Shown: positions 1,366 to 31,149, counted from the stretch's first letter. The stretch is 64,000 bases of DNA from Mercenaria mercenaria (GCF_021730395.1 NC_069369.1:15475210-15539209), one strand, 5' to 3'. Numbers and translations: made by a program. Notes: generated by a model not told the origin, from the sequence alone.

Positions 1366-2111
1366 TGTACCAAGTGATCAGGTTTGTACACTTTGCATGT
1401 CTTCTTGATGAGGTCAACATTTGATAGCCATATGATCTTTGACCTTCATGTCTCACATTGACTTTTATCATAGCAAACTTTTTCACAGTTAAATGAAAAT
1501 CAATTAACCAGTCCAAAATAAAGCTATCTTGAACTTTGACCTTCCAGTGTGACCTTTATCATAGTGACTTGAGTTGTGCCCTCAGACATCAATGATGAGG
1601 CACACAACTAGTGCTAGTCTTGTGAAAATCCTTTCAGCGATTTATAAGATACGAAACAGGCATAAAGTTAAATTAATTAAACCTCCAAGTCTGACCTTGA
1701 CCTTGGACCCAGTAACCTGAGTAATATGTGATTTTCATGGTATTATCATGGTAAATAATTACATGAAAATATCTGAAAGTTCATCAAACTGTTTCATAGA
1801 TATGCCTTCGGAAAGGAGATATGGATACACAGACTGTCGACAATGCACAACTCCAGTAAAAGCCCCATATACTATGTATATATGGGTATAATAATTCTGA
1901 AAATACAGACATTGCAGCAGTGTCTATATCTTATGAGAATATATGCAAGTACATGTGTTAAGTTTTAGTTTGGCACATATTTAAACTATCTATGTGATAC
2001 CTACATCATATTTAGTATTATTTGTTTCAAATGCAATGCCTCAAAAGCAACCTTTTTCAAAAGTTGACAAACTAAGTAATATGGGAAACAAATGCTGTCT
2101 GATGACAGCGC

Positions 2112-3298
2112 GCTCGACTATTCGAAGAATTGATTGAAGAATGGGGTCAAAATATTTCCACAGATATTCAGACAAAAGAAATAAATAGATTAGACAAACA
2201 ATGTTCCTGTATTTCTTTGATTTCGATAAGTCTTGCACTAAATGGCAATGTATGAACCAATTTCAAAGTCCAAAAAGGGCCATAATTCAGTCAAAATAGT
2301 TATGTACACTTGCCTACAGATAGAAATCATAATGATAAACAAGTGTTCAAAGTTTAAAAGCCATATGTCAAATAGTTTTTACAAAACATGGACTTGTATG
2401 AAAACAGAACCAATTTCAAAGTCCAAAAAGGGCCATAATTCAGCCAAAATGGATGACAGAGTTATGTACTGTTTCCCACAGATAGAGACTATTACACTAA
2501 ACAAGTGATAAAAGTTTCAAAGCCATAAGTCAAACACTTTACAAAAAATATGAACTGGTACGGAAAACTTAACAAAGATTTCTAAGTCAAAAGGGGCCAT
2601 AATTCAGCCAAAATCCATGATGGAGTTATGTACTCTTGCCTATAACTGGATGTGGTGATGGTAAACAGGTGTTGAAAGTTTCAAAGCTTTATCTCAAAAG
2701 AATTTGTCAAAATATGAACTGGTACAAAATATTAACCCAGATTTCTAAGTCAAAAAGGGCCATAATTCAGCCAAAATTCTAGATGGAGTTATGTGCTTTT
2801 GCCTATAACTGGACTTAATGATGGTAAACAAGTGTTGAAAGTTTCAAAGCTTTATCTCAAAAGACTTTGTCAAAATACGAACTGGTACGAAAAACTTAAC
2901 CAAGATTTCTAAGTCGAAAGGGGCCATAATTCAGCCAAAATCCTTCATGGAGTTATGTACTCTTGCCTATAACTGGCCATGGTGATGGTAAACAAGTGTT
3001 GAAAGTTTCAAAGCTTTATCTTAAAAGACTTTGTCAAAATATGAACTGGTACGAAAAACTTAACCATGATTTCTAAGTCAAAAGGGGCCATAATTCAGCC
3101 AAAATCCTTGATGGAGTTATGTGCTCTTGCCTATAACTGGCCATGCTGGTGGTAAACAAGTATTGAAAGTTTCAAAGCTTTATCTCAAAAGACTTTGTCA
3201 AAATGTAGACTGGTACGAAAAACTTAACCAAGGTGTGACGCCGACGCCGACGCCGTGGTGAGTAGGATAGCTCTACTTATTCTTCGAATAGTCGAGCT
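2112..3298. mobile_element. non-autonomous TIR element, family A (TIR GCTCGACTATTCGAAGAAT...ATTCTTCGAATAGTCGAGC) with a subterminal (GACGCC)3 module and an internal tandem array of about 150 bp x 6.5
   Basis: The terminal inverted repeats are visible at 2112-2130 and 3280-3298. The tandem array spans 2240-3230. The module GGTGTGACGCCGACGCCGACGCC sits at 3234-3256. Confidence 0.7.
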
Positions 3299-4021
3299 AA
3301 AAATGACAAAAATTTGATTTCATGTTGATATCTAGCTCAACTTTACACAACAACAACAACTAAAAGTTAGCAAACAACCTGTCTACAGATAAGAAACAAT
3401 GATACTATATGACTGAGGCTGAGATTTCAATGTGTTGCACTGAATACAAATAAATTGCCTATTAATGATAATAAATGTCTAAATTTGTCTCAGAATAATT
3501 TAAACTTGATAATGGTTTATTTAACAAAATGCAGGAATTCTAAATATTTTCATAAATACTTTATACCTCAGTCTCTAATTCAAATTCTTTTAAATGAAAC
3601 TTCGCAGTAAATAATAAAGTTCTAAGTAACAATTTTGGGGGCTGAATCAATACACAGCTGTTAGTTCCATATTAATCAATTCACATGGAGATACAACAGT
3701 GTATTGTAAAATTGTAACACTGTATTGAGTATTTAAACATCTCAAAATCCTTTACTTAAGCTTTGGTTTTATAGAAGGAACATACTTAATATATAAAATC
3801 TTGGACCATTACAAATGTAGGTGGATTTTCCAAATACAAATTCACAGTTTATTCATAAATTGAAAAGGATTTGATTATTTCAACACAGCTTATAATATTC
3901 CTATGTATGCAACTCCTAGAGACTTTAGGCATGTAATTAAAATTTCTTTTTTGTAAAATTAGGGCAAATTTTATAAACAAGTTGTCACAGAAGAAGTGTA
4001 TAATACTGTAGAAACTTGAAT

Positions 4022-4169
4022 TCACCTGTCAGGATCTGTAACTGAGGATGGAGACTGTGTCCGACCTTTCTTCTTCTTGGTGTGACTCTCACTGTGTGGA
4101 ACACCCATCTGGTTCAATATACGCTGGATTTCTGCATAGTACTCCTTCGGCTCATTGTTCTCTAATGAT
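4022..4169 (-). CDS. upstream gene terminal exon (V)SLENNEPKEYYAEIQRILNQMGVPHSESHTKKKKGRTQSPSSVTDPDR*
   Basis: Minus-strand acceptor cctaaacag. Only one frame is open, ending in TGA at 4022-4024. Confidence 0.6.
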
Positions 4170-4693
4170 CTGTTTAGGTAAGAAACAAATCTGAATCAAT
4201 GCGAAGTTAGTAATATAAATAGTTTTAACTGCTTTATAAAGTAATGAAACCAAAGATTTTCATACGCATGTGTGCTGTAACAGTATTTCAATACAGCAAT
4301 TGTGATTATGTAACCAGACTGAGTTCTCCAAAAGTAAATGAACCATGCTTGTGCAACAAATTAAAAATATTATCTAACATGTATATTTGGTATGGTGTAT
4401 TTAAAGGATGCTGAGCATATTTAAATCAAGTTGGCAGTTTACTGAAGTAATTATCAGAAAGCTGTATAAAACCGATACTGAAAACCTGCTTACTGCTCAA
4501 AGTTGCAGTAAATTTGAACAACACCAGTAAAACACCCCACTTACTGTACAAAACTTTTAGGCTCTCAGTTTACATTCCCACAGTAAAACAAAACAATATC
4601 CAGTATCTATAAACAAGTAATTAAGAAATACAGAATACAGCAACACTGAATCACTCTCTTGATAATTTTGGAAGTAAAACAGAAGAATCTTAC

Positions 4694-4788
4694 ACTTTGA
4701 GTTTACAAATCATGTAGAAAATTCCCAACTCTGGTGAAGCTTTAATGTCCTTGTGGAACTTTGAAGAATCTATCAGCTGATTTCTTAT
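4694..4788 (-). CDS. upstream gene exon 6 (IRNQLIDSSKFHKDIKASPELGIFYMICKLK)
   Basis: Minus-strand acceptor cattacag and donor GTAAGA. Needed to restore phase between exons 5 and 7. Confidence 0.45.
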
Positions 4789-5335
4789 CTGTAATGTACA
4801 AGATTTTTCTATATCTCAGATCTGTCCTCATGTAAAATGTTTGTGAGTAAGGTTTAGGGCTACTCTTCATTAACTCAATCATGAAAAGTCAATAAACATT
4901 TATATGTTTCCACAGGGTTTTGATTCTTGTCTGCATATACAGGGGAAATGGAAAGTGTCTGCTAAAGATTCTGTGATAAATTAATCATGTGTCCTGCTGC
5001 AAATGAAAGGGTTAAAACTTCAAAAATAAGATTCACAAGTATTTTGTTTGGGCAATACAATCTTTACAACCTTTAGAACATGTGAAAGATACAATTCCCT
5101 AAAAAAAATAGGGTAAATTAAATTTGCATATAGATGCCTGACTAGATTTGACTTGGACCTAACTGATTCAGGAGTGATTTTATAAATTTGCAGACTCAGC
5201 TTTAAAATCATGCAATACAAAACACCAATAATTTCAAGATATAGAACTGTTTTGCTTACAACTAATATATCAACAATACAAGAAATAAGATCAAAGCTTA
5301 TACTATCAAAACTGTGTGGATCATTCAATACATAC

Positions 5336-5459
5336 TATAAGTCCAAACACTTGTTTATAGAGATGTGGCACATTCTGTTTTATAAAGGCAGCTGCAGCAC
5401 TTGCAATCTGGGCAGCATCGTTCTTCTTCCCTGCATCCAGATTACACTCAATCAATGCA
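5336..5459 (-). CDS. upstream gene exon 5 (I)ALIECNLDAGKKNDAAQIASAAAAFIKQNVPHLYKQVFGLI
   Basis: Minus-strand acceptor gttttcag and donor GTATGT. The donor choice is uncertain; alternative GT sites exist 20-40 nt upstream. Confidence 0.45.
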
Positions 5460-6139
5460 CTGAAAACACAATAGATATATCCCATTTCAAAAAACATTTC
5501 AATCTCCTCAGGTCTTTCTCTTTATTTTCTGAGGTAAAAGTTGCCTCATGGTAACCCTCTACCTTAATGGTTAGAGTAAGATTTGCAGTGCAAATCAGGC
5601 CCTTGGGGCAAAGGCTCAAACATGGATTGGACTTTCCATCAAGTAACTGGAAAACACCAACCACAAGTGAACAAATATAATTCATATCATTTACTAACAG
5701 CACAAATTTATATTGATTACCAACTAAAAGTTAATATCCAGCTAACTGTTACACTTAGTGAAAGAATAACTTTAAAAAACGTTCTTAAAACATTGCTCAT
5801 GTAAACATTTAAAGCTATATGTGTCCAAAATTTCATATTTGGAAAAATGAACAATTAGTACACACAATCTATGTAAACACAAAATAAATAAAGTAGTATT
5901 TTGTGTAAGGTTTAAAAAAAATAGAAACATAATAAAAGTATATATAGCCTTAGAATGACTTTGTAATACCACTACAATGTTGTTTTCCAACCGCTGACAG
6001 CTATTTCACAACATACTGTAAATGAAGCTCTAAATATACAGTTGTGTTATTTATTCAACCATGTTATAGTGAGTGATGCAGATAGTATATCTTTAATACA
6101 AGTCAGCAAAAATGGAAGAAAAAACAATAGATAACTTAC

Positions 6140-6304
6140 ATCATAAGCTGAGCTCTCCATTCATAATCTTTATCATCTATATCATCTAAAGCTTTCACCA
6201 CAGAATGCAGGCTACGTGCCAGGAACTGTCGAAAATTCTGCTTCAAGAACGGACGGCAAAACTGCCAGTATATCACTGAGGCATTGTACACCAGGAAATG
6301 GTAT
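6140..6304 (-). CDS. upstream gene exon 4 (R)YHFLVYNASVIYWQFCRPFLKQNFRQFLARSLHSVVKALDDIDDKDYEWRAQLM
   Basis: Minus-strand acceptor tttctag and donor GTAAGT. Phase-consistent with exons 3 and 5. Confidence 0.6.
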
Positions 6305-7007
6305 CTAGAAATAATACATTGTGTAGAAAAATAATGTCATATTTAATTCTAATAAACAATTTTAACAAAGCCGGTTAACTTTGTTTACACTATATATACA
6401 AAGGTAGTAGAAAAGTGACCCTTATATCTAAGATTCACAATACTGACTTAGCTTGTCTGAAAAGGAAGATCTTGACTTACAGTTGTGGCCTTTGCAAAAT
6501 GTTCTGCAAGTTTTTGTTTACTTCAAATTATTATATAATTCAATCCAGAAAGATTTTTAAATCATTTACAATTATGTTTATTTGATAATGACTTGGACTA
6601 AAAAAAAGTCACCACTTTTTCATTGACAATACCAATAATTAAACGTTGGCGCAGTATTAACTGCCTGGATTTTCTCACCTAGGAAAACCCAGAATTTCCC
6701 AGGCTGGGTAATATCCCTCAAGTGGGCAATACTGGGCAATATGACTTTTTTTGTTTAGATTTACTGCTCAATTTAACCTTTGGTTACTTATTTTACATTG
6801 TTGATCATTCACATTAGAGTATGAACATGTTTATGACATCCTAGTTGCACACAGTGTCTAGAAACAAATGTTGAAATTTCTTGGTTTATTAAATATCATA
6901 AAGAAGTATAATGTTATTACAGAACAACAGTTTATTGCTATATCATAGCAATATCTGAAGCATCTAACTCCATAAGTATTTGGTAACAGAATATTAAAAT
7001 TTATTAC

Positions 7008-7201
7008 CTTGGATTGCCTTTAGCGAATGATATAGCCTTGAGCAAGTAAACAACTGCCTTCTCTAGCTGTTCTGGTATGGTGGCTTTGGGAGCCAACAGC
7101 TGGGACTGACACAGGTAAGCTCGGCATAAGAACTGGTTCCCAGGTGGTGGCTTCATAAAGTACATCTTTAAACATTCTTTTGAGATGTCAAATAACCCAT
7201 T
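7008..7201 (-). CDS. upstream gene exon 3 (NGLFDISKECLKMYFMKPPPGNQFLCRAYLCQSQLLAPKATIPEQLEKAVVYLLKAISFAKGNP)
   Basis: Minus-strand acceptor cttttacag and donor GTAATA. Corresponds to the 73-aa ORF 7004..7225. Confidence 0.6.
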
Positions 7202-7592
7202 CTGTAAAAGTATGTCAAAGGTCATTTACATATTTCTGTACTATATCATTTAACTAAGTCATAGTTTTTCTTAACTTATGTCCTGGCTCACCATAGGGTT
7301 TAAAATTTCAATCATAATTTCCTACAAACAAACTGAAATGAATAAAATATTTATCATTAATTTGCTCTTTAAAAAATATGTCAATTCTTTAATTGAATAT
7401 ATACACTTTACAGTCTCCCTTAATAAAGTTTAATAAAAAGCCATTTCATATACATATCATGATAAAATGCCTGCATTGTTTTTCATCTTACATTAAAAGT
7501 TAGCAATCCTATTTTCTTTAATATGCAATATTCTACATGTATGACTGAGAAAAGGAAAATGTGGGAGGTAAAAGTAAATCTGAAATAGTAAC

Positions 7593-7726
7593 CTGGAAGG
7601 CAATCTCTGCACATTGGACATAGAGGTCTGGGCTGAATGCCTCTGGATTATCCACTGTAGGTTTATTTTCTGCAACATTTCTCAGCAAACTATAGGCTTG
7701 CAGCAGTGCTGGGTTCTTTTCCTGGC
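7593..7726 (-). CDS. upstream gene exon 2 (G)QEKNPALLQAYSLLRNVAENKPTVDNPEAFSPDLYVQCAEIAFQ
   Basis: Minus-strand acceptor tcttttcag and donor GTTACT. Open frame. Confidence 0.55.
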
Positions 7727-8789
7727 CTGAAAAGACATATCTAAATTGTCAGGCACACAGCTTGATGAAAAGCATATCTTAATGACATCTTTTGGAAGTA
7801 TCCTATCAAATGCACAAACCCATGTCTACCTATTACGGTAGCTAATACAATCAAAATGCAGTACTGTAATGTAGTTGGATGAATTTTTAAGTTGCGTACA
7901 ACAAATTAACTTTAATTTGTTTTAGATCTTTTAGCTATATACCACTTCTTCATTCCATTTTAATTAGATTTATTGTATTTGTAGTCCAAAAATGCTCTCG
8001 TCCTGCAGGGCAAGTACTACAGCATAGTTATGAGCATTGAGCAATTAATATTTTAATACAATAGAAAATTTTGTGATCAAGGAAACGTAACTCTCCCTGA
8101 TCAGAAACATCAAAGTATAAATAATATACTTAATATTTTCATTTTTATTTAATTTCAATTTACATTCAACAGTGATCTGAATTACTAAACAATGATCTAT
8201 TATACTTTCGCTAAAAATATAGAACATCTGGTACAGTCTGATAACCGTCAAATTTATGCTGTACCAGAATGCAAATATTTAAGGTCTGGCCAGGACTCGA
8301 ACTTGTGACCTCTCACACATAAGGGAGACACTCTTACTACTTCGCTATAACAGCAGACTCTATAGCTAGGTAGTGTAAGTTCACCTTTATTCACTACTGG
8401 ACTACATCACATGAACTGGAACAATTCTGTGACAATGACATGCTCTAAATTATTGGTGTAATTAATGACTTTGTTCGCTACTGGCAATATTTGTGTAAAG
8501 AAATAATAAAATGTAATTTTTTCAACATTTTAAATTAAACAAAAGTTCCAAAACTTCTCTGACATGTTTTCTAGAGTATGAACTTACTAACTTGCAGTGC
8601 CAGTGAAATATAACTTATACACCAATTTTTTTATATTTTCTCTTTTAGCAGCACTGGTAAACACTGCTGCAACGACAACCAGCTTTGTACAAAAATCAGC
8701 ATTTACACATTTTAAAAAGGATATCAATCAAAAAGAATTTACAGCTACAAACTTAATACCTCTCTGCATCACACAAAGTCAATAGCATT

Positions 8790-8895
8790 CGCTGTTGTCA
8801 CAGGGTGAGAAAAATGTGCAGCCAGACCGGGACTCGAACCCAGGGCCTCGGAATACCGTTCCGATGTGCTACTGACTGAGCTACTCGGCCGCCTA
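8790..8895 (-). tRNA. tRNA-Thr(GGT)-like unit, probable pseudogene or SINE head (intact anticodon arm TCGGA-ACGGTAT-TCCGA, acceptor stem not pairable)
   Basis: Minus-strand GGCGGCCGAGTAGCTCAGTCAGTAGCACATCGGAACGGTATTCCGAGGCCCTGGGTTCGAGTCCCGGTCTGGC. The 3' flank TGCACATTTTTCTCACCC is shared with the 9040-9135 copy. Confidence 0.4.
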
Positions 8896-9039
8896 CACAC
8901 TTTCTCCCCGTTTAAATATTCAAGTTCTATACCCACTGTTTTGAAATTTGTCCTCAATTTTCAGCGGGCACTTCATATACAAGCAATTTCAGGCATCAGA
9001 GACTAACCAGTGTAATGCCATCATGGCCCCATGTTGGGC

Positions 9040-9135
9040 GCCAAATGTCACTGGGTGAGAAAAATGTGCAGCCAGACCGGGTGTCGAACCTGGGGCCTCG
9101 GAATACCATTCCGATGCTCTACCGACTGAGCTTCC
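9040..9135 (-). tRNA. second tRNA-Thr(GGT)-like unit (D arm GCTCAGTCGGTAGAGC intact, acceptor stem mismatched), probable pseudogene or SINE
   Basis: Minus-strand GGCCGGGAAGCTCAGTCGGTAGAGCATCGGAATGGTATTCCGAGGCCCCAGGTTCGACACCCGGTCTGGC. Confidence 0.4.
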
Positions 9136-9362
9136 CGGCCACCTACACACTTAAGTTCTATACCGCAACCCTGTCAATCAGTATTATAGCTAAGGCTAAG
9201 ATCGACTATCACTGATTCATTCCAAATCAAATGATTCCTAGGCATAAAGTCCATTGGGTACATTTTAACTCGTTACCGGTGCATGTGTACATGTACATCC
9301 CATTATATTTATAAAAATCACAATATGAAAAGAACTATGGTAAGGTCTCTATACAGAGTCAA

Positions 9363-9893
9363 CAGGTCAGAGACTTCCCCTGGACTGAGAGATATTCTCT
9401 CGATCTAAACATTGTCTCTCGTTCGAAAGACAGAATGTCTTTCGATTGAAAGACTCAAATTAGCTTAAGCAATGAAAATCAATGAAAGAGTAATTAAAAC
9501 TCTCTATTTAAAATGCGCAAATTTATTTCATATATAGAAAATTATCTTTCTTTTATCAAATTTTCAAAAACAAAATTTTTTGGGAATTTTGCTTAAGCAT
9601 GATAATGCTTAAGCAAACTTCTATGACAGTGAGTTTCTTGTAAAGTTTACCTGAAATAACAAGTTGTTTTAATAAATAAATAATGCAACTGTAACGGAAT
9701 GTTTGTTTTAATAATGATTTCATGTTTTTTCAACACTTAAGGTAAATACAGTCTTTCGATCGAAAGACATTTTGTCTTTCAAATGAGAGACAGTGTTTAG
9801 ATCTAGAGACTGTATCTATCTTCCGCAGACGTCAAACCCCTTGAGGGAACGTAGACTGTCTCTCAATCCAGTGGAAGTCTCCGACCTGGTCAA
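9363..9893. mobile_element. MITE with TIRs about 90 bp long (CAGGTCAGAGACTTCCCCTGGACTGAGAGA...) inside intron 1 of the upstream gene, about 0.7 kb from the MVP start codon
   Basis: The 5' segment 9363-9460 and the reverse complement of 9750-9893 align over about 90 bp with a few mismatches. Confidence 0.65.
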
Positions 9894-10082
9894 TGTTTAC
9901 TTTTTACAGACGAGTACACTGAAGCAGTCTTGATACATGTACAGTACTTTGCCTCGAAATGTGAACTCTTATCTTATACCCCCACCCCAGGCACCGTGAT
10001 GACAATTCATGAAATGTGGGACAATATCGATACTGATGGCTGAGCAACATATAAAAACCAGAAACGTGTATTGTATACTTAC

Positions 10083-10131
10083 CACTAATTTTTTGGGCTG
10101 CTACTAATAATGAACGTATACTGGTATCCAT
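10083..10131 (-). CDS. upstream gene exon 1 (MDTSIRSLLVAAQKIS, donor GTAAGT)
   Basis: ATG followed by a perfect GGTAAGT donor. Phase 1 joins in frame to the next exon. The ORF-track GTG-start extension is probably 5' UTR. Confidence 0.4.
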
Positions 10132-10581
10132 AATTATTATGTGTGCTGCACTTTCTACTAAAGATTCCGGAAATTTGGACACGCACCTTGTTTACACCGC
10201 CATGTTGTTTGGGCGATTCACATAATTCTATTTAATCATGAACTTGAAAATATAGTTCTAGATTTGAGTTATGAAATTCTATTTCCTTAAATTTAAAGAA
10301 AGTTGCATTCTAGTTCAACTTATTTATGACATTTTATTTTGAAAGTTAGTCTCAATCATGATATATTTTTAAACTTCTAAAAAGAAGTCGTTCTCTTTGA
10401 TTTAACGCGGATTTGTCATAGAAACAGTGATGCGGTTTTAGGTGCAATGTAGAAATAACTGTCTGTGAAAATAACACTCAGTCTCTCTACAGGAAGTTAT
10501 ATCAAGTTATTACCTGTAGGTAAACATAACAAAACAGAACAAAACTAAGTCTTTATCTGAACCTCATATTGAACGACAGCC

Positions 10582-10635
10582 ATGAGTAACATCATAGGTA
10601 TATCACCATTGCAATATGTTCACGTTTTGGACATG
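10582..10635 (+). CDS. MVP: MVP exon 1 (MSNIIGISPLQYVHVLDM), donor GTAAGT
   Basis: ATG followed by an IIxIxPxxYxHVLD motif typical of the MVP N-terminus. A GTAAGT donor sits immediately after the exon. Phase 0. Confidence 0.75.
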
Positions 10636-10959
10636 GTAAGTTAGCTATTTATAATTTATTTTCATTGTATTTTGATCATTGAGCAGTAATTAACTGAAAA
10701 AAATTTCCTGGTGACTTGTATATGTATTGTCTTATACTTACAGAAACTGATACTTTTCAGATCAATGCTTTTAACAGCAAATACATGTTTAGGCGATAGT
10801 TACATTTCGGTACACTCAGTACAGTACTAATTGCTAAATTAGCCAATTGATTAGAGTTGTTTCGCATTTGTTTATATATAGACTGATATTTTGTTCTTAT
10901 CAAACTATCCATTTTGCTCTAAATTAATGTAGCTGATAAATATCCCCATTGTTTTCAAA

Positions 10960-11570
10960 AAAGAGGGAGATAGAAATGGGCTGCATCTTTCCATACGTCC
11001 GTCCGTCCATTTGTGTCTGGTCCATAACTTTGCCATCTGTGATTGGCATCAAGAAATTTTGCCTTGTTACAAATGTTTCCCTATGTGAAACTTTGTCATT
11101 CATCAAGGGATTTTGAAATTACTAAGCAGAAATTTGCCCCATAATGAGAGGACACATCATGTGTAAGACCCAGACCCATAGCTGCAAGGTTAAGGTCACA
11201 CTTAGAGATTAAAGGTTAACATGGTTGGTTTTTTTGTCCAATCCATAACTCTGCCATTTATCAAGGGATTTTGAAATTACCTGGCACAAATTTTCCCCGT
11301 AATGACAATGTGTCATGTGCAAGACCCAGATCCCTATCTTCAAGGTCAAGGTCACTCATGGAGGTCCCAGGTTTAGAGCATCAGTTTCATATACGGTCCA
11401 TATTTTTACCATTCATCAAAGGATTTCAAATTCACTTGGCACAAGTGTTCCCAATAATGAGATGTTGTGTTGTGTGCAAGACCCAGGCCCCTGTCTAAAT
11501 TTAGGTCAAGGTCACACTTAGAGGTAAAAATAATAGGGGATTTTGGTGTGGTCAGTAACTTAACTTTGCA
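10960..11570. repeat. tandem satellite, about 150 bp x 4, in MVP intron 1
   Basis: Recurring ATTCATCAAGGGATTTTGAAATTAC...GACCCAGACCCATAGCTGCAAGGTTAAGGTCACACTTAGAG. Confidence 0.75.
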
Positions 11571-11829
11571 TGGATGGATATTCAAGTAATTTGACACAAA
11601 CAGTCACCATAATAAATTTATTTGTTGAATGTACGACTCTGACTTTTAGCTCAATGTCAAGGTCACCTTTGAAGATTAAATATTTTTGGTATATTTTTGT
11701 CTGATCTGTAATTATTTTATGCATGGGTGTATATTTGAATAACTTTGCATAAATATTCACCATTACAAGACAATGTGTCATATTTAAAGGTCAAGATAGC
11801 AGGCACAAAATAACCTCTTTTTTTAAGCT

Positions 11830-13150
11830 CATCTGAACTTTGTTCCGGGTGAACTATTAGTATAGGTGGATGGTCCGGCGTCCATCATCCTGTGTCCTGC
11901 GTCAACATCTTCTCCTCTGAAACTACTGGTCAGAATTACACTAAACTTGGTCAGTAGCATCCTTGCATGGACCTCCATCAATTTTGTTCAAATGGTTCAC
12001 CTTTGCTTTTAGGGGCTGCCAGAGCTAAAAATAGAAAAACCTTTAAATAACTTCTTCTCATGAACCGCTTGATGGATCTTCATCAATCTTGGTCTGTAGC
12101 ATCATTATAAGGTCTTCTCCCAAATTTGTTCAAATGGGGGCACTTGGACCCTTTTAAGGGCCGCTACAGTTTAAATTATAAATGCCTTCAAATGACTTGT
12201 TCTCATGAACGTCTCGATGGATTTTCATCGAACTTGGTATATAGCATCGTTATAAGATCCACTCCGAATTTTGTACATATGGGGGCTAAAGTTAGAAATA
12301 CATTTAAATAACTTCTTTTTATACTGCTGTACGGATCTTCATCAAATATGGTTTGTAGCATCATTACAAGGTCCTCTCCCAATTTTGTTCAAATGGGGAC
12401 GATTGGCCCTTCTTAGGGGCTACCAGAGCTAAAATTAGAATTGCCTTTAAATCGCTCCTCATGAACCACTCGATGAATCTTCATTAAACTTGACTTGTAG
12501 CATCATTATAAAGTCCTTCACCGACATTGTTCAGTAGGGGGCAATTGTCCAATTTTAGGGGCTGCTAGAGTTAATAAAGATAGAAACACCTTTAAACAAT
12601 TTCTTCTCATGAACCGCTTTATGGATCTTCAGAGGATCATTATAAGGTCTATTCTCAAAAATGGTTCAGTTGGGGGCACTTTGCCCCATTTAGGGGCCAC
12701 TAGAGCTAAAAATAGAAATACCTTTAAAAGACTTCTTCTCATGAACCACTTGATGGATCCTCATCAAACTTTGTCTGTAGCATCATTAGAAGGTCCTTTC
12801 TGAATTTTATTCAAATGGGGACAGTTGGCCTCTTTTTAGGAGTAAAAAAATAGAAATAATTTTGAACTAACTTCTCATTAATTCCTGGGTCTTCATCAAA
12901 CCTTGTATGGAGCATCATAAGGTCCTTTTCCATGTTTGTTTGATTGGGGGCACTTGGCCCCTTTAAGTGGCCGCTAGAGCTTTAAATAGAAATACCTTTG
13001 AAGTACTTCTTCTTATGAATCACTTGATGGCTCTTCATCAAACTTGGTCTATAACATTATTATAAGGTATTAATGACTTATATCAAATTTGTTCAAATGG
13101 TGGCACTTGGGCCCTTTAAGGGGCCACTAGAGTTAAAACAGAAATACCTT
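11830..13150. repeat. tandem satellite, about 160 bp x 8, in MVP intron 1
   Basis: Recurring unit ...CATCAATTTTGTTCAAATGGGGGCACTTGGCCC...GGGGCTGCCAGAGCTAAAAATAGAAA.... Confidence 0.8.
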
Positions 13151-13386
13151 TAAATGATTTGTCTGATGGTGATGCGTTTTTGATGCGTGACAGAAAAATA
13201 TAGGAAAAAAACACTTTTAAAATTTTGTTTTAATGAACGGCTTAAAGGATTTTCACCAAACCTAGTTAGAAGCAATGTCTATGTCTACTTAAGCCCATTT
13301 GGGCCTCTTGTTTGTTTATACATGAAATTATTTCCCTTTTATAAAGTACAATACATTTGTATTTATGTCAGTTTTCCCACTAATTA

Positions 13387-14513
13387 GCTTGACTATTCGA
13401 AGAATAGTCTAGCTATTCTACTCACCCTGGCGTCGGCGTCGGCGTCACACCTTGGTTAAGTTTTTGCATGCAAGTACATACAGCTATCATTTAAAGGCAT
13501 ATAGCTTTGAAACTTATTTATTCTTTTTCTAGGTCAATTACTAACCTCACTGGGTCAAGTTCCATAACTCTAACATGTATTTTGAGCAAATTATGCCCCC
13601 TTTTGGACTTAGAAAATTCTGGTTAAAGTTTTACATGCAAGTTACTATCTCCAAAACTAATGTAGATATTGAATTGAAACTTCACATGTGCCTTCGGGGT
13701 TATAAAACTAGTTGATAGCACCAAGTCCCATAACTCTGACCTTCATTTTGGGCAAATTATGCCCCCTTTTGGACTTAGAAAATTCTGGTTAAAGTTTTGC
13801 ATGCAAGTACATACAGCTATTACTAAAAGGCATATAGATTTGAAACTTATTTTTTTTTTCTAGATCAATTACCTACCTCACTGGGTCAAGTCCCATAACT
13901 CTGACATGTATTTTGGGCAAATTATGCCCCCTTTTGGACTTAGAAAATCCTGGTTAAAGTTTTACATGCAAGTAACTATCTCCAAAACTACTACAGATAT
14001 TAAATTGAAACTTCACACGTGTCTTCGGGGTTATAAAACTAGTTGATAGCACCAAGTCCCATAACTCTGACATGTATTTTGGGCAAATTATGCCCCCTTT
14101 TGGACTTAGAAAATCCTGGTTAAAGTTTTGCGTGCAAGTACATACAGCTATTACCAAAAGGCATATAGCTTTGAAACTTATTTATTCTTTTTCTAGGTCA
14201 ATAACCAACCTCACTGGGTCAAGTTCCATAACTCTTAACATGTATTTTGAGCAAGTTATTCCACCTTTTGGACTTAGAAAATTCTGGTTAAAGTTTTACA
14301 TGCAAGTTACTATCCCCAAAACTAATGCAGATATTGAATTGAAACTTAACATGTTTCTTCGGGGTTATAAAACTAGTTGATAACATCAAGTCCCATAACT
14401 CTGATATGTATTTTGGTCAAATTATGTCCCCTTTCTAACTTAAAACTCTTTTGATATTTCACATTTTGGGTAATAATTTCCTGCTTCTGTGACAATATTT
14501 CGAATAGTCGAGC
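13387..14513. mobile_element. family A TIR element, second copy in opposite orientation, carrying a different internal satellite (about 190 bp x 5.5)
   Basis: GCTTGACTATTCGAAGAAT at 13387 and TTTCGAATAGTCGAGC at 14498-14513. GGCGTCGGCGTCGGCGTCACACCTTGGTTAAG at 13429-13460. Confidence 0.7.
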
Positions 14514-14989
14514 TTGGCCTCTTGTTTAAAAATGCAATCATGTTTAAAGTAACATGATTGGTATTGATTGACATAAAAAGCTATTATTAACAATTGTAGA
14601 CTGCCAGAATGCAAACCCAGGCACAGGTTATAACATTAGGTTTATATAGGTAAATACATTATTGTTATGATTAGGTTGATTTTAATATAAGTAGTGCAGC
14701 TCAGAATGGACCAACATTGGTATTAACTGTCTCTGGTGTGTAACTTAAAAACAAGTTTAATTAGTACCATATATATGTCATGCATTTCAGTTGTTTATTA
14801 ATTTAGATTACCTCCCTTTAGTATGATAAACTATTTCATTATAGTTTTGTTTAATTTTTTTACCAGTTTGAAAATAAAACCACAGTGAATCATTGAAATA
14901 CAGATGTTGATTTGGCATGCAAAATGTTATACATTATACCAGATTAATATAGTGCCCTTTTCATGATAAATGCGTTCGTAGGCGCTTTA

Positions 14990-15365
14990 CATATAGCAAA
15001 CGCAGTCACACAGGGTGCGAAATTCATTCTTTACTAGTACAGACACAGTGCGATCTGACCAGAGGGACAGAGTGAGATTAAGCCCGCAGAACAGATAGAA
15101 AGAAAAATCCTTTTTAGATACAGGCCTGTCCAGCTAACTTAGCTTAGCTCTTTGCAAATAGACAGTCTGGTTCTTTAATGTGCCCGGTGTATAGCACAGA
15201 TACACGCGAAGCCGTCTTCCCTGGGAAGAACCAGTACAGGCCTCTTAGTTAGGTGGGAGACACTTAAGAGCATCTCAGAAATTTCCAGTGCCTGGATCGG
15301 GATTCAAACCCCGGACCTCTAGACGGATAGTCAAGCGTGTTACCACTACACCACCAGCCCATATG
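14990..15365 (-). mobile_element. tRNA-derived SINE (head 15275-15360 on the minus strand)
   Basis: Minus-strand GGGCTGGTGGTGTAGTGGTAACACG...GGTTTGAATCCCGATCCAGGCAC is tRNA-like but has an imperfect acceptor. Confidence 0.5.
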
Positions 15366-15994
15366 AAAAATGTCCCTAGTCAGGAAATCATATTGGTAAC
15401 TGTGTTACAAGTTGTTGCTGGAATTGAAAGTAAGACATTGCGTATCACTTGAATATTTCTATGACACAACTTATTGGACTGTACTGTATAAGTGATGGAT
15501 AACTTTGGTGTGTTGTAAACATTGAGAACTGGATCACCCTTACAGAAATATTATAGTTTGTTGCGATCATGCAACAGGGGACCATGCCACAAACACTTTT
15601 GGTGAAATAGATACATGGACTTTTCACATGCAAATTAGATTTGCTGCAAACAGGTTGCTGCAAACTTCCTGCAAACAAGTTTCTGAGAACTTCCCACAAA
15701 CAAATTGCTTCAGACATTCTGTGAACTTGCTGTGAACAGGTCCCTATGAACATTCTGTGAACAAGCTAAGAACCATAATTATCAAGCAGAATTCAGCCAG
15801 AAACTGTTGTAAGTCTGGCTTACATTTTGGCAAAATTTTGCCCCTTTTACACATAGAAATTGTGATAATGTTTAACCATAAATCCAGCTTAAAATGAATT
15901 AATTTTAACAATTATAGCACTACCATAGTGCTTGTTATCACTTATTAGTTTAATTTTGGGGAGGGTTTCTAAGATGTAGTACCAAGAGTAGCCT

Positions 15995-16260
15995 GTCAGC
16001 TTAGCTCAATAGAGAGAGTGCAGATCTACGGATCACGGAGTCGTGAGTTCATTCCTCTGGCGTGGGGTATATTCTCTGACAATTTGATAGAAGACATTGT
16101 GTCTGAAATCATTGATCCTCCACCTCTGATTCATGTGGGGAAGTTGGTATATAACAACATATCAGATGTCAAAAGTGTTAAAGAAATATTTAGAAAGAGA
16201 TGTAACAAAAAGTTTCAAAAAAATGGAAACAGTATTAATGGCATGTGAATATGTGCTCAG
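15995..16260 (+). mobile_element. tRNA-derived SINE (head AGCTTAGCTCAATAGAGAGAGTGCAGATCTACGGATCACGGAGTCGTGAGTTCATTCCTC)
   Basis: A-box and B-box-like motifs. No intact cloverleaf. Confidence 0.45.
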
Positions 16261-17632
16261 GGCAAAAAGAAATAGCCTTAAGGCAATGATTGTAATAGAA
16301 ATTTATTGTTGTATTGTGCATACATATATTCATATATAGAAGTTATTAAATGTGTATAAAAATAGGTATGACTGTAAATAAATTTACTTTGACGTAGATA
16401 TAGACGTAGATTTGCAGTTAGTTTATCTGACTATACTAAACTGAAACATATTTCTGACATCGCTGATACTTAAGGTAGTAATCTGAGGTCAAATGTTTAG
16501 GTTCATAGGTTAGATAATATCACACATCTCTCCAGTCAGTTTTATATTAAGGTATAGGTTATCCATTATTAAAGCCTTTACCTTAACTGTAAAAAAGGTT
16601 TCCATACAGGCGGCCAGTCTCATTTAACTATATTTTATGATATTATCTAATTTCTGTATATTCTATTACATTTATTTAAGGAGAAAAAGACGATTTACAT
16701 AATGTTAGATCACTTTTAGAAATGTATATTTCTTTCATTTTTATAGAATTTTATAATTGTTCCCCTAAGTATTTTAAAAGCTGAGTATTTCTTTTGATTT
16801 CTGTATAATCACTAGTTGATAGATAATGGAATAACAGTATGAACAAAAAGGCAAATGCTAAAACTGCATGTAGCTTTAGACTTAATTTATTTTCAGTCTG
16901 TCCTTGGTTAACATTCAGGATAGGTAAGCAAAGGGAGCTAATAATAGTTTTAAATCTTGCATTTCTCATAAATTTTGGCTAAATATAACTGTCAATACTA
17001 GTTTTTGACAAATATAAAAAATAGTTCTTATTTACCGGTAAGTCACTTACAAGTGGAACACTGGAGAGGACTACAGGAATTCCCTCTGCATATAAGGTAC
17101 TTTTTGTGGCTTGATGGGTACTTCATAAATAACAAAAAAAAAAAACCTAATAAAGGTCTGTTCATGAGAACATCCATCCCTCTGTCCATCTGCAAATCTG
17201 GATCCTGCTTTACTCAAAAAGTATTCAAGCTAGGTTCATAAAACTTGGTGTGTGAATAGAGGGCAATACATGTATATAGATTATGCACATACATGACTTC
17301 ATGACTTATGCTTGTAGGTCAAAGGTCTAGGTCACTATTGAAGGTCAAGTAAATCATTGATTTTGCTCCATAACTTTTATATGCATTGATGGATTATCTT
17401 AGTGCTATGCAGAAATGTTCCCCATGATGAGATATTGTCAGCACATGACCTATGCTTGTCAGTCAAATGTCAAGGGCACTGTTGAAAGTTTTCCACCAGT
17501 AGGGGACTTCTGTCTTGCCACTGCAATACTTGGTCACTTGTATTCATGAAGTTCCCTAGGCTTTTGTTGATAAAATTAATACTTATGCTAAGATAATTCT
17601 TACTTAAACAAGAGCTGTCGGAGGACAGCAAC

Positions 17633-18566
17633 GCTCGACTATTCAACAGCCTTGTTGACTGAATGAATACGAAAGTCGAAAAAGGGGCATAATTTAAAAA
17701 AGCAAAATAGGGTTATGGAACCTGCATAGTGCTTATCAGCTCATGACAGTGGACAAGTGTGTGAAGTTTCAATCCATTCCCATTAGTGGGTACTGAGATA
17801 CCAGCTTACACATAAGAATTTAACCCAAAACTCCTAAGTTTAAAAAGGGGCATAATTTTGTAAAATGCAAAGTTGAGTTATTGACCTTTTGCACTGCATG
17901 TCATATCATGACAGTGAACAAGTGTGTGAAGTTTCAATCCTTTCCCATTAGTGGATACTGAGATACCAGCGTACATACAAAAACTTAACCAAACATTTCT
18001 ATGTTGAAAAAGGGGCATAATTTTGTCAAAAAGCAAAATAAAGTTATGGGACCTGCTTTGTGCAGTAAGATCATGACAGTGAACAAGAGTGTGAAGTTTC
18101 AATCCATTCCAATTAGTGAGTACTGAGATACCAGCTTACATACAAAACCTTAACCAAAAAATTCTAAGTCAAAAAAGGGGCATAATTTTGTAAAAAAGCA
18201 AAATAGAGTTATGGAACCTGTGCAGTGTAAGTCAGTTTATCACAGTGAATAAGTGTGTGAAGTTTCAATCCATTCCCACAAGTGGTTACTGAGATACCAG
18301 CTTACATACAAAACCTTAACCAAAAATTTCTTAGTCAAAAAAGGGGCATAATTTTGTGAAAAAGCAAACTAGAGTTATGGAACCTGTGCAGTATAAGTCA
18401 GTTTATCACAGTGAATAAGTGTGTGAAGTTTCAATCCATTCCCACAAGTGGTTGCTGAGATACCAGCTTACATACAAAAACTTAACCATATCGGGACGCG
18501 GACGCCGACGCGGACGCCGACACATGGGCGAGTCCAGTAGCTCTACTATTCTATGAATAGTCGAGC
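17633..18566. mobile_element. family A TIR element, third copy (internal array of about 150 bp x 5, related to the 2240-3230 array)
   Basis: GCTCGACTATTCAACAG at 17633 and CTATGAATAGTCGAGC at 18551-18566. GACGCGGACGCCGACGCGGACGCCGACAC at 18494-18523. Confidence 0.65.
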
Positions 18567-24898: not shown

Positions 24899-24934
24899 GT
24901 AAGTTAGACAGACTGCTAGAACAGTCCTCATTTT

Positions 24935-25750: not shown

Positions 25751-25751
25751 G

Positions 25752-30884: not shown

Positions 30885-31149
30885 TCCATTTTAACTTCTA
30901 TTGATGCCACTCAGTGGATTTTCTTTTTCTATATGAATAATCAGATTGTCAGGGAACACAAAACTTATTTCATAGTGAATTGTCTACTTTTGATAGCAAG
31001 GTGCTTTTGACTCAAAATTGATTGATTAGAGACATTAGCTTAGAAGCGTAAAACATTCAGGCACCTATACTTTTTCTCAAAGTAATCTTAGAATATATGT
31101 CAGGCCACAAGAACCTATAAATTACTTTATGGACATTTTAACAGCATAC

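What the first reader, a model, noticed from the sequence alone, without database searches (positions are those of the whole stretch)
2112..18566. One TIR family (GCTCGACTATTCGAAGAAT) carrying three different internal satellites: transposon-mediated satellite dissemination
The copies at 2112-3298, 13387-14513 (inverted) and 17633-18566 share 19-bp TIRs and a subterminal (GGCGTC)3 + CACACCTTGGTTAAG module. Their interiors are different tandem arrays: 150 bp x 6.5, 190 bp x 5.5 and 150 bp x 5. The module always sits at the end where the array starts. This suggests the module primes, recombines or templates array expansion. The GGCGTC trimer is one of the few CpG-rich motifs retained in a CpG-depleted genome.
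Basis: seen in the sequence. Interest (0 to 1): 0.65.

Follow-up and report, generated by a model that had tools for sequence, protein, structure and literature searches.

The report
Helentron-type transposons carrying satellite arrays

Summary
The three copies are real and far beyond chance, and relatives occur in unrelated metagenome contigs, so this is a dispersed mobile family and not a local duplication. It is not a Tc1/mariner or PIF element. The "TIR" is a subterminal inverted repeat. Each copy has the full anatomy of a non-autonomous Helentron (HINE): T-run, 5' subTIR that forms a hairpin with an adjacent inverted repeat, a (GGCGTC)n microsatellite, a ~165-bp tandem array, a 3' subTIR, a 3' palindrome and a conserved CTCTTGTT end. 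I found no target-site duplication and no coding capacity. The stated periods are wrong: they are 164, 166 (a 331-bp dimer) and 165 bp, not 150/190/150. The three arrays are not different satellites. They are 63-71% identical variants of one monomer, joined to the microsatellite in the same phase. Array and terminus phylogenies disagree, which suggests module exchange between HINE families. At least 12 such elements of four terminus families cover about a fifth of the window, several of them inside introns of a major vault protein gene. All of this matches published bivalve HINEs. One loose end is a monomer identity gradient that falls away from the microsatellite.

The parts
2086..3303 (-). 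E1: complete HINE copy 1.
   Evidence: Contains a T-run, 5' hairpin, microsatellite, six monomers, a unique stretch, 3' subTIR, palindrome and terminus.
3269..3303 (-). E1 5' end: T-run 3299-3303, A 3298, 5' subTIR GCTCGACTATTC 3286-3297 (19-nt version 3279-3297), inverted repeat (IR) GAATAAGTAGAGCT 3269-3282.
   Evidence: DNA fold -6.8 kcal/mol, z -3.7, 0 of 200 shuffles as good.
3237..3254 (-). E1 microsatellite (GGCGTC)3, followed by the linker ACACC.
   Evidence: exact match.
2249..3231 (-). E1 array: six ~164-bp monomers. m1 starts at TTGGTTAAG next to the microsatellite. m1-m4 are 90-93% alike; m5 and m6 are 68-77% alike to the rest.
2112..2130 (-). E1 3' subTIR (ATTCTTC)GAATAGTCGAGC. 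The 12-nt core is 12/12 complementary to the 5' subTIR; the extended repeat is 19/19.
2086..2111 (-). E1 3' palindrome GCTGTC-ATCA-GACAGC (2094-2109) and terminus ATTTGTTT (2086-2093).
   Evidence: (6-bp stem).
13384..14527 (+). E2: HINE copy 2 with a damaged 3' end.
   Evidence: L010 and L023 align at 92-93% and stop at 13384.
13386..13414 (+). E2 5' hairpin: A, subTIR GCTTGACTATTC, loop GAA, IR GAATAGTCTAGCT.
   Evidence: Fold -9.6 kcal/mol, z -4.4.
13429..13446 (+). E2 microsatellite (GGCGTC)3.
13452..14449 (+). E2 array: three copies of a 331-bp dimer (monomer types a-b-a-b-a-b, 165-168 bp). Same-type monomers are 88-93% identical; a against b is 68-76%.
14495..14527 (+). E2 3' subTIR (core GAATAGTCGAGC at 14502-14513), then TTGGCCTCTTGTTT. 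The palindrome is largely deleted, so this copy is probably immobile.
   Evidence: no stem; z -0.5.
17606..18572 (-). E3: complete HINE copy 3.
   Evidence: The 3' boundary at 17606 coincides with the end of a 90-bp paralogous flank.
18539..18572 (-). E3 5' end: T-run 18568-18572, A 18567, subTIR 18555-18566, IR GAATAGTAGAGCT 18539-18551.
   Evidence: Fold -9.6 kcal/mol, z -5.1. One search hits both strands here because the subTIR and IR together form a palindrome.
18495..18524 (-). E3 microsatellite, a GGCGTC/CGCGTC variant with a 12-bp period.
17665..18489 (-). E3 array: five ~165-bp monomers. m1-m2 are 95% identical, falling to 79% at the distal end.
17606..17644 (-). E3 3' end: subTIR GAATAGTCGAGC (17633-17644), GTT, palindrome GCTGTC-CTCC-GACAGC (17614-17629), terminus TCTTGTTT.
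10970..13312 (+). O: an older, degenerate HINE between E1 and E2. It has a CGTCCGTCCGTCC microsatellite near 10997, a diverged ~140-bp array at 11089-13162, and the 3' end GCCCATTTGGGC-CTCTTGTTT. Its 5' boundary is uncertain.
22512..22917 (+). E4t: a short deletion derivative of the AGCTCATCTG family. It has a 5' hairpin, (GGCGTC)n, and one monomer interrupted by a ~190-bp insertion, then runs directly into the GTGCTCTTGTT terminus.
24931..25779 (+). E4: a HINE of the AGCTCATCTGATTTTTT terminus family, with (GGCGTC)n and a 173-bp x3.9 array homologous to the E1-E3 monomers. It lies in an MVP intron.
29320..30885 (+). F: a HINE of the AGCTCACCTGTCAC family, with a (GTCC/GTCG)n microsatellite and a 161-bp array unrelated to the E arrays.
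34400..36583 (+). G: same terminus family as F but carrying an unrelated 145-bp x14 array. It starts about 25 bp after an MVP splice donor.
42804..44207 (+). IJ: same 5' end as F and G, carrying two consecutive arrays, F-type (192 bp) and then G-type (146 bp).
44225..45176 (+). K: a HINE of the AGCTCACCTGAGC subfamily with a 166-bp array. It is inserted 24 bp after the 3' end of IJ.
60058..61104 (-). M: a K-type HINE with a 166-bp array that shares a 58-bp stretch (79% identical) with a C. gigas CL1/Cg170 monomer.
62943..63759 (+). E5: a HINE of the AGCTCCACTTTTC terminus family, with a CpG-decayed microsatellite GGTGTCGATGTC and a 164-bp x4.1 array homologous to E1-E4.

Best explanation
E1, E2 and E3 are copies of one family of non-autonomous Helentrons. 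This class is known as HINE or DINE-1-like, and in bivalves as pearl, DTC84, MgE and Cg_HINE.

Read in element orientation, each copy is:
- a T-run;
- A plus the 12-nt 5' subTIR GCTCGACTATTC;
- a 3-nt loop and an inverted repeat that folds back on the subTIR;
- a 14-nt spacer;
- a (GGCGTC)n microsatellite;
- five to six ~165-bp monomers in a fixed orientation and phase;
- a short unique stretch;
- the 3' subTIR GAATAGTCGAGC;
- a 6-bp-stem palindrome;
- the terminus CTCTTGTT.

Shown here: this architecture, its recurrence with different flanks inside and outside the window, the absence of coding capacity, and the co-variation of the paired parts.

Inferred from what is established for Helitron/Helentron elements:
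- The copies are mobilised in trans by the Rep/helicase(-endonuclease) protein of an autonomous Helentron through a single-stranded rolling-circle intermediate.
- The 5' subTIR/IR hairpin and the 3' subTIR plus palindrome act as the start and stop signals.
- Insertion is into T-rich sites without a target-site duplication.

The array is cargo. It is copied with the element, then grows, shrinks and homogenises in place, and is occasionally re-assorted between HINE families that share monomer boxes. That is how short satellite-like arrays end up scattered through the genome.
For: ARCHITECTURE.
- Reads of the three copies.
- The 5' hairpins fold with z -3.7 to -5.1 in E1-E3. Other families in the window fold at up to z -5.3, except E4 at z -2.2. 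The 3' palindrome is a 6-bp stem in E1 and E3.
- The 3' subTIR is 12/12, 11/12 and 12/12 complementary to the 5' subTIR.

CO-VARIATION.
- Four terminus families in the window have different subTIR sequences: CGACTATTC, CATCTGATT, CCACTTTTC and CACCTG. In each family the IR matches the 5' subTIR, and in three of them the 3' subTIR does too. In the CACCTG family only the GCTCACCT core matches, and poorly in K and M.
- The 3' palindrome is 100% paired in 42 cells, with 2 pairs changed on both sides (GCTGTC/GACAGC against GCCATC/GATGGC). 6 of 500 shuffles do as well.
- In the second family it is 92% paired, with 3 pairs changed on both sides. Loop sequences vary freely.

DISPERSAL.
- Chance expectation for the TIR is 0.00 matches.
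- 15 low-GC metagenome contigs carry T-run|AGCTCGACTATTC..IR..(GNCGTC)n. In 12 of them a TGGTTAA-phase array (one with the start deleted) follows the microsatellite.
- L001, L005 and L006 are full length, with the 3' subTIR, palindrome and CTCTTGTTG.
- L010 and L023 are 92-93% identical to E2, and the match stops at the element boundary.
- L023 and L024 add further 3' ends.

OTHER.
- No ORF of 133 aa or more exists in the window.
- Every array is monophyletic in the monomer tree, with 83-100% bootstrap.

LITERATURE.
- Defining HINE features: 12-15-bp subTIRs, an IR next to the 5' subTIR, a microsatellite, central repeats, a 3' stem-loop, TT/T-rich targets with T-runs at the boundaries (PMC4067079).
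- The same features in C. gigas, with 140-180-bp monomers, GTCY/GTCK-type microsatellites, fixed array orientation and no TSD (PMC7492417).
Against: - No autonomous Helentron with these termini was found in the window or in the fetched loci. The link to a Rep/helicase is therefore by structural analogy only. The same gap exists in the C. gigas study.
- No empty site was found. Absence of a TSD is read from flanks alone, and the T-runs at both ends could hide a TT duplication; the older pearl/DTC84 papers proposed an 'AA' TSD.
- E2 lacks the palindrome.
- The paralog of E3's 3' flank ends exactly at the boundary but is not an empty site.
- The 3' subTIR sits 38 nt from the terminus, at the low edge of the 38-60 range given for mite HINEs.
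Confidence: 0.88

Rival explanations
1. A cut-and-paste MITE of the Tc1/mariner or PIF/Harbinger superfamily, with 19-bp terminal inverted repeats.
For: A perfect 19/19 inverted repeat in E1. Older literature called such elements MITEs with a dinucleotide TSD (PMC3879986).
Against: - The 2 bases outside the repeats are GC/TA, TA/TT and AC/TA, so there is no TA or TTA/TAA duplication.
- Conserved sequence extends 26 nt beyond one repeat, through the palindrome and CTCTTGTT, and through A plus a T-run beyond the other. This holds in window copies and metagenome copies alike.
- The two ends are asymmetric.
- In E3 the repeat is only 12 nt.
Confidence: 0.03
2. Local segmental duplications of one array-bearing segment, not a mobile family.
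For: All three copies lie within 16.5 kb.
Against: - The flanks of the three copies are unrelated, and similarity stops at the element ends.
- Orientations differ.
- Arrays are only 63-71% identical, whereas the 5' module is about 92% identical.
- The same ends occur in 15 metagenome contigs and one MAG contaminant contig, each with different flanks.
Confidence: 0.01
3. One terminal 'cassette' independently captured three pre-existing, unrelated genomic satellites (filler-DNA capture). This is the literal reading of the finding's title.
For: - The E1 and E2 5' modules are 91.6% identical over 83 bp, but their arrays are only ~67% identical.
- The monomer tree is incongruent with the termini.
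- In the neighbouring AGCTCACCTG family, the same ends do carry unrelated arrays (F/I, G/J; the K/M type in the AGCTCACCTGAGC subfamily).
- 'Group 2' Cg_HINEs show the same thing.
Against: - For E1-E3 the arrays are homologous (z 7-14), of equal length, in the same orientation, and joined to the microsatellite at the same monomer position (TGGTTAA) in 17 of 21 copies across subfamilies and samples.
- Three independent captures would not reproduce the same junction.
- Exchange between related HINEs, or divergence under weaker constraint on the array, explains the data more simply.
Confidence: 0.08
4. The microsatellite plus junction module actively seeds or templates array growth, so that arrays expand from that end.
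For: - Adjacent-monomer identity falls monotonically away from the microsatellite in E1, E3, E4 and E5, and nearly so in L001.
- m1-m2 is the most similar pair in 5 of 8 arrays (post hoc P about 0.035).
- The junction GTCACACCTTGGTTAAG is kept in copies that are otherwise only 75-80% identical (L011, L012).
- The DTC84 authors also raised a role for the microsatellite.
Against: - E2 and L006 are dimeric higher-order repeats, and L005 has a divergent first monomer.
- The sample is eight arrays, and the test was chosen after seeing the data.
- An inherited fixed order of monomer variants, as in DTC84, would give the same picture without any seeding activity.
- Conservation of the junction is also expected if the whole left flank is needed in cis for transposition.
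Confidence: 0.15

Closest known systems
[quoted passage not shown] 2020, PMC7492417)
   Same: - Left flank with an 11-12-bp subTIR, a complementary IR after 1-12 bp, and a GTCY/GTCK-type microsatellite.
- A central array of 140-180-bp monomers, mostly 5 or fewer copies, always in one orientation.
- Right flank with a subTIR and a palindrome.
- T-rich targets, no TSD, dense interspersion, copies in introns.
- Their groups with related flanks plus related arrays, related flanks plus unrelated arrays, and double arrays are all seen in this window.
   Different: - The terminus sequences here were not found in that paper's text or held supplements, although the table of subTIR sequences was illegible.
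- The microsatellite unit is a hexamer (GGCGTC) joined to the first monomer through only 3-6 nt. In Cg_HINEs a variable 10-500-bp segment separates them.
- The host species is unknown. It is probably another bivalve.
DINE-1 / HINE, non-autonomous Helentrons (Thomas et al. 2014, PMC4067079)
   Same: SubTIRs, an IR nested against the 5' subTIR, a microsatellite, central repeats, a 3' stem-loop, T-runs at the boundaries, a TT/T-rich target and no coding capacity.
   Different: There is no sequence similarity to the conserved Drosophila DINE-1 core. No autonomous partner is identified here, whereas for three Drosophila DINE-1 families partners at 98% identity are known.
pearl (CvA, CvE, CvG), DTC84 and MgE 'tandem-repeat-containing MITEs' of bivalves (PMC3879986 and references therein)
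   Same: Modular flank + microsatellite + up to ~6 core repeats of ~160 bp + flank. [quoted passage not shown] The number and order of repeat variants is structured. There are links to the BIV160/Cg170 satellite family.
   Different: - Those elements have tetranucleotide (ACGG/ACTG) microsatellites. MgE lacks one.
- They were first interpreted as MITEs with an AA TSD.
Canonical Helitron non-autonomous elements (Helitron-N)
   Same: Asymmetric ends, a 3' hairpin a few bases from the terminus, no TSD and cargo capture. Repbase files the oyster HINEs as Helitron-N.
   Different: There is no 5'-TC...CTRR-3' and no A^T target. Subterminal inverted repeats are present, and these are the Helentron hallmark.

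Membership tests
HINE / non-autonomous Helentron (DINE-1-like) | 11-15-bp subterminal inverted repeats, with the 5' one a few nt from the 5' terminus | tested here: met
   GCTCGACTATTC starts 1 nt after the A that follows the T-run. The 3' copy is 12/12, 11/12 and 12/12 complementary.
HINE / non-autonomous Helentron (DINE-1-like) | A short inverted repeat 1-22 bp downstream of the 5' subTIR that pairs with it | tested here: met
   3-nt loop. Hairpins of -6.8 to -9.6 kcal/mol, z -3.7 to -5.1, in E1-E3.
HINE / non-autonomous Helentron (DINE-1-like) | A short microsatellite in the left flank, followed by central tandem repeats in a fixed orientation | tested here: met
   (GGCGTC)3 or a variant, then 5-6 monomers of 164-166 bp in the same orientation and phase in all copies.
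HINE / non-autonomous Helentron (DINE-1-like) | A 5-10-bp-stem palindrome between the 3' subTIR and the 3' terminus, 8-35 bp from the end | tested here: met
   GCTGTC-N4-GACAGC ends 8 nt from the terminus in E1 and E3, and is also present in L001, L005, L006, L023 and L024. It is 100% paired, with compensatory changes in L006. It is deleted in E2.
HINE / non-autonomous Helentron (DINE-1-like) | Insertion into TT / T-rich sites without a target-site duplication | tested here: inconclusive
   TTTTT immediately precedes AGCT in 13 of 18 family copies (2 of 3 in the window, 11 of 15 in the loci), and no flanking direct repeat is seen. No empty site was available, so a TT duplication hidden in the T-runs cannot be excluded.
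HINE / non-autonomous Helentron (DINE-1-like) | No coding capacity | tested here: met
   No ORF of 133 aa or more anywhere in the window. ORFs inside the elements are array read-throughs.
HINE / non-autonomous Helentron (DINE-1-like) | Shares its termini with an autonomous Helentron encoding Rep/helicase (+ APE endonuclease) | not testable with these tools
   No such ORF in the window or in loci L004, L006 or L018. The host genome is not searchable here.
Canonical Helitron | 5'-TC ... CTRR-3' termini, insertion between A and T, no inverted repeats | tested here: not met
   Ends are T(n)AGCTC ... CTCTTGTT(T/G), and subTIRs are present.
Tc1/mariner or PIF/Harbinger MITE | Terminal inverted repeats flanked directly by a TA (Tc1/mariner) or TTA/TAA (PIF) duplication | tested here: not met
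   Bases outside the repeats are GC/TA, TA/TT and AC/TA. Conserved element sequence continues beyond the repeats.
BIV160 / Cg170 bivalve satellite family (for the cargo arrays) | ~160-170-bp monomers sharing two conserved sequence motifs with BIV160/Cg170 | tested here: inconclusive
   The E-type monomers have the right length and four conserved boxes of their own, but no BIV160 sequence was available for comparison. Only the K/M arrays showed a local match to a C. gigas CL1/Cg170 monomer (58 bp, 79%, E 5e-9).

The most novel reading that the evidence does not exclude
HINE arrays may grow directionally from the microsatellite junction. In that case the microsatellite plus the conserved first-monomer box (GTC-ACACC-TTGGTTAAG) would act as a slippage or re-initiation site during rolling-circle copying. 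New monomers would be added next to it, and the oldest would sit at the 3' side. This would give a mechanistic, testable link between transposition and the birth of satellite arrays. It is suggested only by the monotonic identity gradient in 4-5 of 8 arrays and by conservation of the junction across diverged copies.
Probability: 0.12. Interest if true: 0.5.

Novelty: already known. Interest (0 to 1): 0.18.

Why it matters
The finding itself adds little. Helentron-borne satellite-like arrays, including families with shared flanks and differing arrays, have been described in oysters, clams, mussels and Drosophila, and 'transposon-mediated satellite dissemination' is the stated conclusion of those papers.

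What the window does offer is a compact worked example.
- At least twelve elements of four terminus families lie in 64 kb, about a fifth of the sequence by my sum of the coordinates.
- The subTIR and IR co-vary in all four families, the 3' subTIR in three of them, and the 3' palindrome co-varies within the two families tested.
- Array and terminus phylogenies are incongruent.
- One element carries a double array.
- Several insertions lie in the sense orientation within tens of bases of splice donors of a conserved gene.

The polar identity gradient would be worth a genome-wide test, because it bears on how satellite arrays are born.

Tried and rejected
1. TSD search at the 19-bp repeats. None was found, so Tc1/mariner and PIF were rejected.
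2. Empty-site search inside the window. The 90-bp paralog of E3's 3' flank (17516-17605 against 19887-19970) ends exactly at the element boundary, but its other side does not match E3's 5' flank. It supports the boundary but is not an empty site.
3. Literature text search for the terminus 13-mer: 0 papers. Searches of the Cg_HINE supplements for the termini and monomer boxes found nothing useful. The subTIR table is illegible and the array file is cut after cluster CL1. The BIV160 paper prints no sequences.
4. Autonomous partner. No long ORFs in the window or in L004, L006 or L018.
5. Species identification. A protein search with the MVP exon gave only unnamed ORF fragments at 86% identity or less, so the species remains unknown.
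6. Pfam on two window ORFs: no hits.
7. Rfam and tRNA scan: only one tRNA-Thr-like hit at 9068-9140, unrelated to the elements.
8. Viral-contig scan for the 5' module: 0 hits.
9. Eight of the 23 metagenome hits are high-GC bacterial chance matches and were discarded.
10. One search failed because I gave the wrong reading frame.

Full report
OBSERVATION

The 19-mer GCTCGACTATTCGAAGAAT is present as an inverted pair in three places.
- 2112-2130 / 3279-3297: perfect.
- 13387-13405 / 14495-14513: 1 and 2 mismatches.
- 18548-18566: 2 mismatches.

There are 7 matches at up to 3 mismatches against 0.00 expected from shuffles. The partner of the third copy at 17633 shares only the first 12 nt.

(GGCGTC)3 is exact in copies 1 and 2 and is a GGCGTC/CGCGTC variant in copy 3. 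CACACCTTGGTTAAG occurs only in copies 1 and 2.

Tandem Repeats Finder gives periods of 164 bp (x5.7), 166 bp (x5.3, better described as a 331-bp dimer x3.0) and 165 bp (x4.9). It does not give 150, 190 and 150.

ANATOMY

Reading the copies in a common orientation (E1 and E3 on the minus strand, E2 on the plus strand) shows that the inverted repeats are not the ends.

The 5' side reads T-run | A-GCTCGACTATTC-GAA-GAATAGTAGAGCT. The first repeat folds back on an adjacent inverted repeat with a 3-nt loop (-6.8 to -9.6 kcal/mol, z -3.7 to -5.1). This is why one search reported hits on both strands at 18540-18566.

Next come a 14-nt spacer, the microsatellite, a 3-6-nt linker and the first monomer, which always starts at TTGGTTAAG.

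After five or six monomers and 19-118 nt of unique sequence comes the second repeat, GAATAGTCGAGC. It is followed by 2-3 nt, a palindrome GCTGTC-N4-GACAGC and the terminus (C/A)T(C/T)TTGTTT.

The true extents are about 2086-3303, 13384-14527 and 17606-18572. E2 has lost most of its palindrome. The window has no ORF of 133 aa or more.

MORE COPIES IN THE WINDOW

Scanning for the 3' motif and for 5' hairpins shows at least nine further elements built the same way. All start T-run|AGCTC (M has the mutated start ACCTC). All end GAGC(G)-palindrome-CTCTTGT. Their subTIRs differ:
- AGCTCATCTGATTTTTT: E4 at 24931-25779, and a deletion derivative at 22512-22917.
- AGCTCCACTTTTC: E5 at 62943-63759.
- AGCTCACCTG: F at 29320-30885, G at 34400-36583, IJ at 42804-44207, K at 44225-45176, M at 60058-61104.

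In each family the IR co-varies with the 5' subTIR, and in three of the four the 3' subTIR does too. In the AGCTCACCTG family only the 8-nt core GCTCACCT/AGGTGAGC is complementary, and K and M match poorly.

The 3' palindrome keeps pairing through changes on both sides:
- In the finding's family it is 100% paired in 42 cells, with 2 compensatory pairs; 6 of 500 shuffles do as well.
- In the AGCTCACCTG family it is 92% paired, with 3 such pairs; 13 of 500 shuffles do as well.

The loops are free to vary. This is what is expected if the paired structure, and not the sequence, is what matters.

COPIES OUTSIDE THE WINDOW

A pattern spanning the 5' subTIR and the microsatellite hit 23 metagenome contigs. 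Eight are high-GC bacterial chance matches. Fifteen are low-GC and show the whole left flank, usually preceded by TTTTT. In 12 of them the microsatellite is followed by an array that starts at TGGTTAA (in L001 the start is partly deleted).

- L001, L005 and L006 are full-length elements with 164-174-bp arrays and the 3' subTIR-palindrome-CTCTTGTTG end.
- L010 and L023 match E2 at 92-93%, and the match stops at 13384.
- L023 holds a second 3' end.
- A low-GC contig filed under a Pacebacteria MAG holds two more 3' ends.

This is a dispersed family.

THE ARRAYS

The consensus monomers of E1, E2 (two alternating types), E3, E4 and E5 are 63-71% identical (z 7-14). They have the same length and share these boxes: TGGTTAA.GTTTT, TTGAAACTT, CATAACT and ATTATG(G/C)CCC-TTTT-GACTTAGAAA. 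They are variants of one monomer, not three satellites.

The junction with the microsatellite is at the same monomer position in 17 of 21 copies inspected. This argues for one ancestral junction.

In a neighbour-joining tree of 38 monomers every array is monophyletic (83-100% bootstrap), so arrays are amplified or homogenised within element lineages. The tree also shows a 100%-supported split {E1, E4, E5, L005} | {E2, E3, L001, L006} that cuts across the terminus families. Together with the 91.6% identity of the E1 and E2 left flanks, this indicates re-assortment of arrays and termini between related HINEs.

Truly unrelated arrays on one terminus family do exist in the window, but in the AGCTCACCTG family. 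F/I, G/J and K/M (the last in the AGCTCACCTGAGC subfamily) show no similarity to each other, and IJ carries two array types in series.

Inside the arrays, adjacent-monomer identity falls away from the microsatellite in E1, E3, E4 and E5, and nearly so in L001. The m1-m2 pair is the best in 5 of 8 arrays (post hoc P about 0.035). E2 and L006 are dimeric higher-order repeats, and L005 is an exception.

MECHANISM

The anatomy matches, feature by feature, the definition of non-autonomous Helentrons (HINE, DINE-1-like) in PMC4067079:
- subTIRs;
- an IR against the 5' subTIR;
- a microsatellite;
- central repeats;
- a 3' stem-loop;
- T-runs at the boundaries and T-rich targets.

It equally matches the eleven Cg_HINE elements of Crassostrea gigas in PMC7492417. 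These have 140-180-bp monomers, GTCY/GTCK-type microsatellites, fixed array orientation and no TSD. They include groups with related flanks and related arrays, related flanks and unrelated arrays, and double arrays.

From established knowledge of Helitron-type elements I infer four steps:
1. A Rep/helicase supplied in trans nicks at the 5' end.
2. It peels off one strand.
3. It terminates at the 3' subTIR/palindrome.
4. It inserts the strand into a T-rich site.

None of these steps is shown here. The autonomous partner was not found, and no empty site was available.

The array is passive cargo that changes by unequal exchange or slippage.

There is no TA or TTA/TAA duplication next to the repeats (the flanking dinucleotides are GC/TA, TA/TT and AC/TA), so Tc1/mariner and PIF are rejected.

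The CpG remark is right as a description. CpG o/e is 0.36, and the HINE left flanks hold 68 of the 693 CpGs in 831 bp, 7.6 times the window's mean CpG density. They include the six densest 40-bp windows.

These CpGs are not protected, however. Older copies show CpG>TpG/CpA decay, for example E5 GGTGTCGATGTC and the truncated copy ...GGCATT. High CpG is more simply a sign of youth, or of renewal by slippage.

CONTEXT

The window contains a major vault protein (MVP) gene on the plus strand.
- One exon matches solved MVP structures at E 8e-15.
- tblastn with a human MVP sequence that I recalled from memory places residues 16-848 at 23853-52064. The recalled sequence is only a lead, but the alignments are computed.

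E1-E3 lie upstream of the first detected exon. E4, F, G, IJ and K are in MVP introns, all in the sense orientation. E4 and G start about 40 and 25 bp after splice donors.

The host is probably a bivalve. This is inferred from three points:
- the element type;
- the local match of the K/M arrays to a C. gigas Cg170-family monomer;
- the base composition.

The species could not be named.

VERDICT

This is a real, dispersed, non-autonomous Helentron family carrying homologous ~165-bp arrays. The general idea of transposon-borne satellite dissemination is right, but it is already published for bivalves and Drosophila. The superfamily guess, the periods, the 'three different satellites' and the element boundaries are wrong.

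I rate it as already known. At most this terminus family is an uncatalogued member, which I could not check against Repbase. Interest is low. The one open point is the polar identity gradient.

Noticed in passing
window 23853-52064 (+): A major vault protein gene. Exons matching MVP residues 16-848 are spread over about 28 kb. The exon at 48907-49150 matches solved MVP structures at E 8e-15.
   Followed up: partly
window 24931, 29320, 34400, 42804, 44225: All five HINEs inside MVP introns are in the sense orientation. Two of them begin only about 25-40 bp downstream of a splice donor (exons ending near 24889 and 34376). Five of five is not statistically significant on its own.
   Followed up: no
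window 42804-44207: One element carries two consecutive, unrelated arrays (192-bp F-type, then 146-bp G-type), like the double-array Cg_HINE_11_12 of C. gigas.
   Followed up: partly
window 44207-44232 and 13312-13384: Two HINEs are inserted 24 bp and about 70 bp downstream of the 3' end of another HINE. This could reflect a preference for insertion next to existing 3' ends, or tandem insertion.
   Followed up: no
window 22691-22885: A ~190-bp insertion with a G/C-rich start (GTCCGGATCCAGGGCCGGGCC...) interrupts the single monomer of the truncated HINE. It is bordered by CCCTG on both sides, which may be a 5-bp target duplication of another small transposon.
   Followed up: no
window 9068-9140 (-) and 8796-8902: A tRNA-Thr(GGT)-like sequence (Rfam 45.7 bits). 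A 107-bp stretch overlapping it (9046-9152) has an 89% identical copy about 250 bp away. It is probably the head of a tRNA-derived SINE and not a functional tRNA gene.
   Followed up: partly
window 17516-17605 and 19887-19970: A 90-bp repeat (89% identical), one copy of which ends exactly at the 3' boundary of E3. It is not an empty site, and its nature is unknown.
   Followed up: partly
window 60394-60865 and 44458-45016: The 166-bp arrays of elements M and K share a 58-bp stretch (79% identical, E 5e-9) with a Crassostrea gigas CL1 (Cg170-family) monomer copied from a paper supplement. This hints at an old bivalve-wide satellite family.
   Followed up: partly
L024 (CAJQIN010000006.1), 1-330: A 36.5% GC contig filed under a 'Candidatus Pacebacteria' MAG carries two HINE 3' ends (subTIR-palindrome-CTCTTGTTT). 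It looks like eukaryotic, probably bivalve, DNA mis-binned into a bacterial genome.
   Followed up: partly
window 1030-1357, 27130-27744, 37139-37864, 39201-39601, 46237-46756: Further tandem arrays (164 bp x2; 51 bp x12; 54/161 bp; 148 bp x2.7; 163-186 bp x2) that I did not assign to any element. The 39201 array is weakly similar to the E3/E2b monomers (z 6-8).
   Followed up: no
E1, E3, E4, E5 arrays; L001: Adjacent-monomer identity declines monotonically with distance from the microsatellite. The monomer pair nearest the microsatellite is the most similar pair in 5 of 8 arrays.
   Followed up: partly
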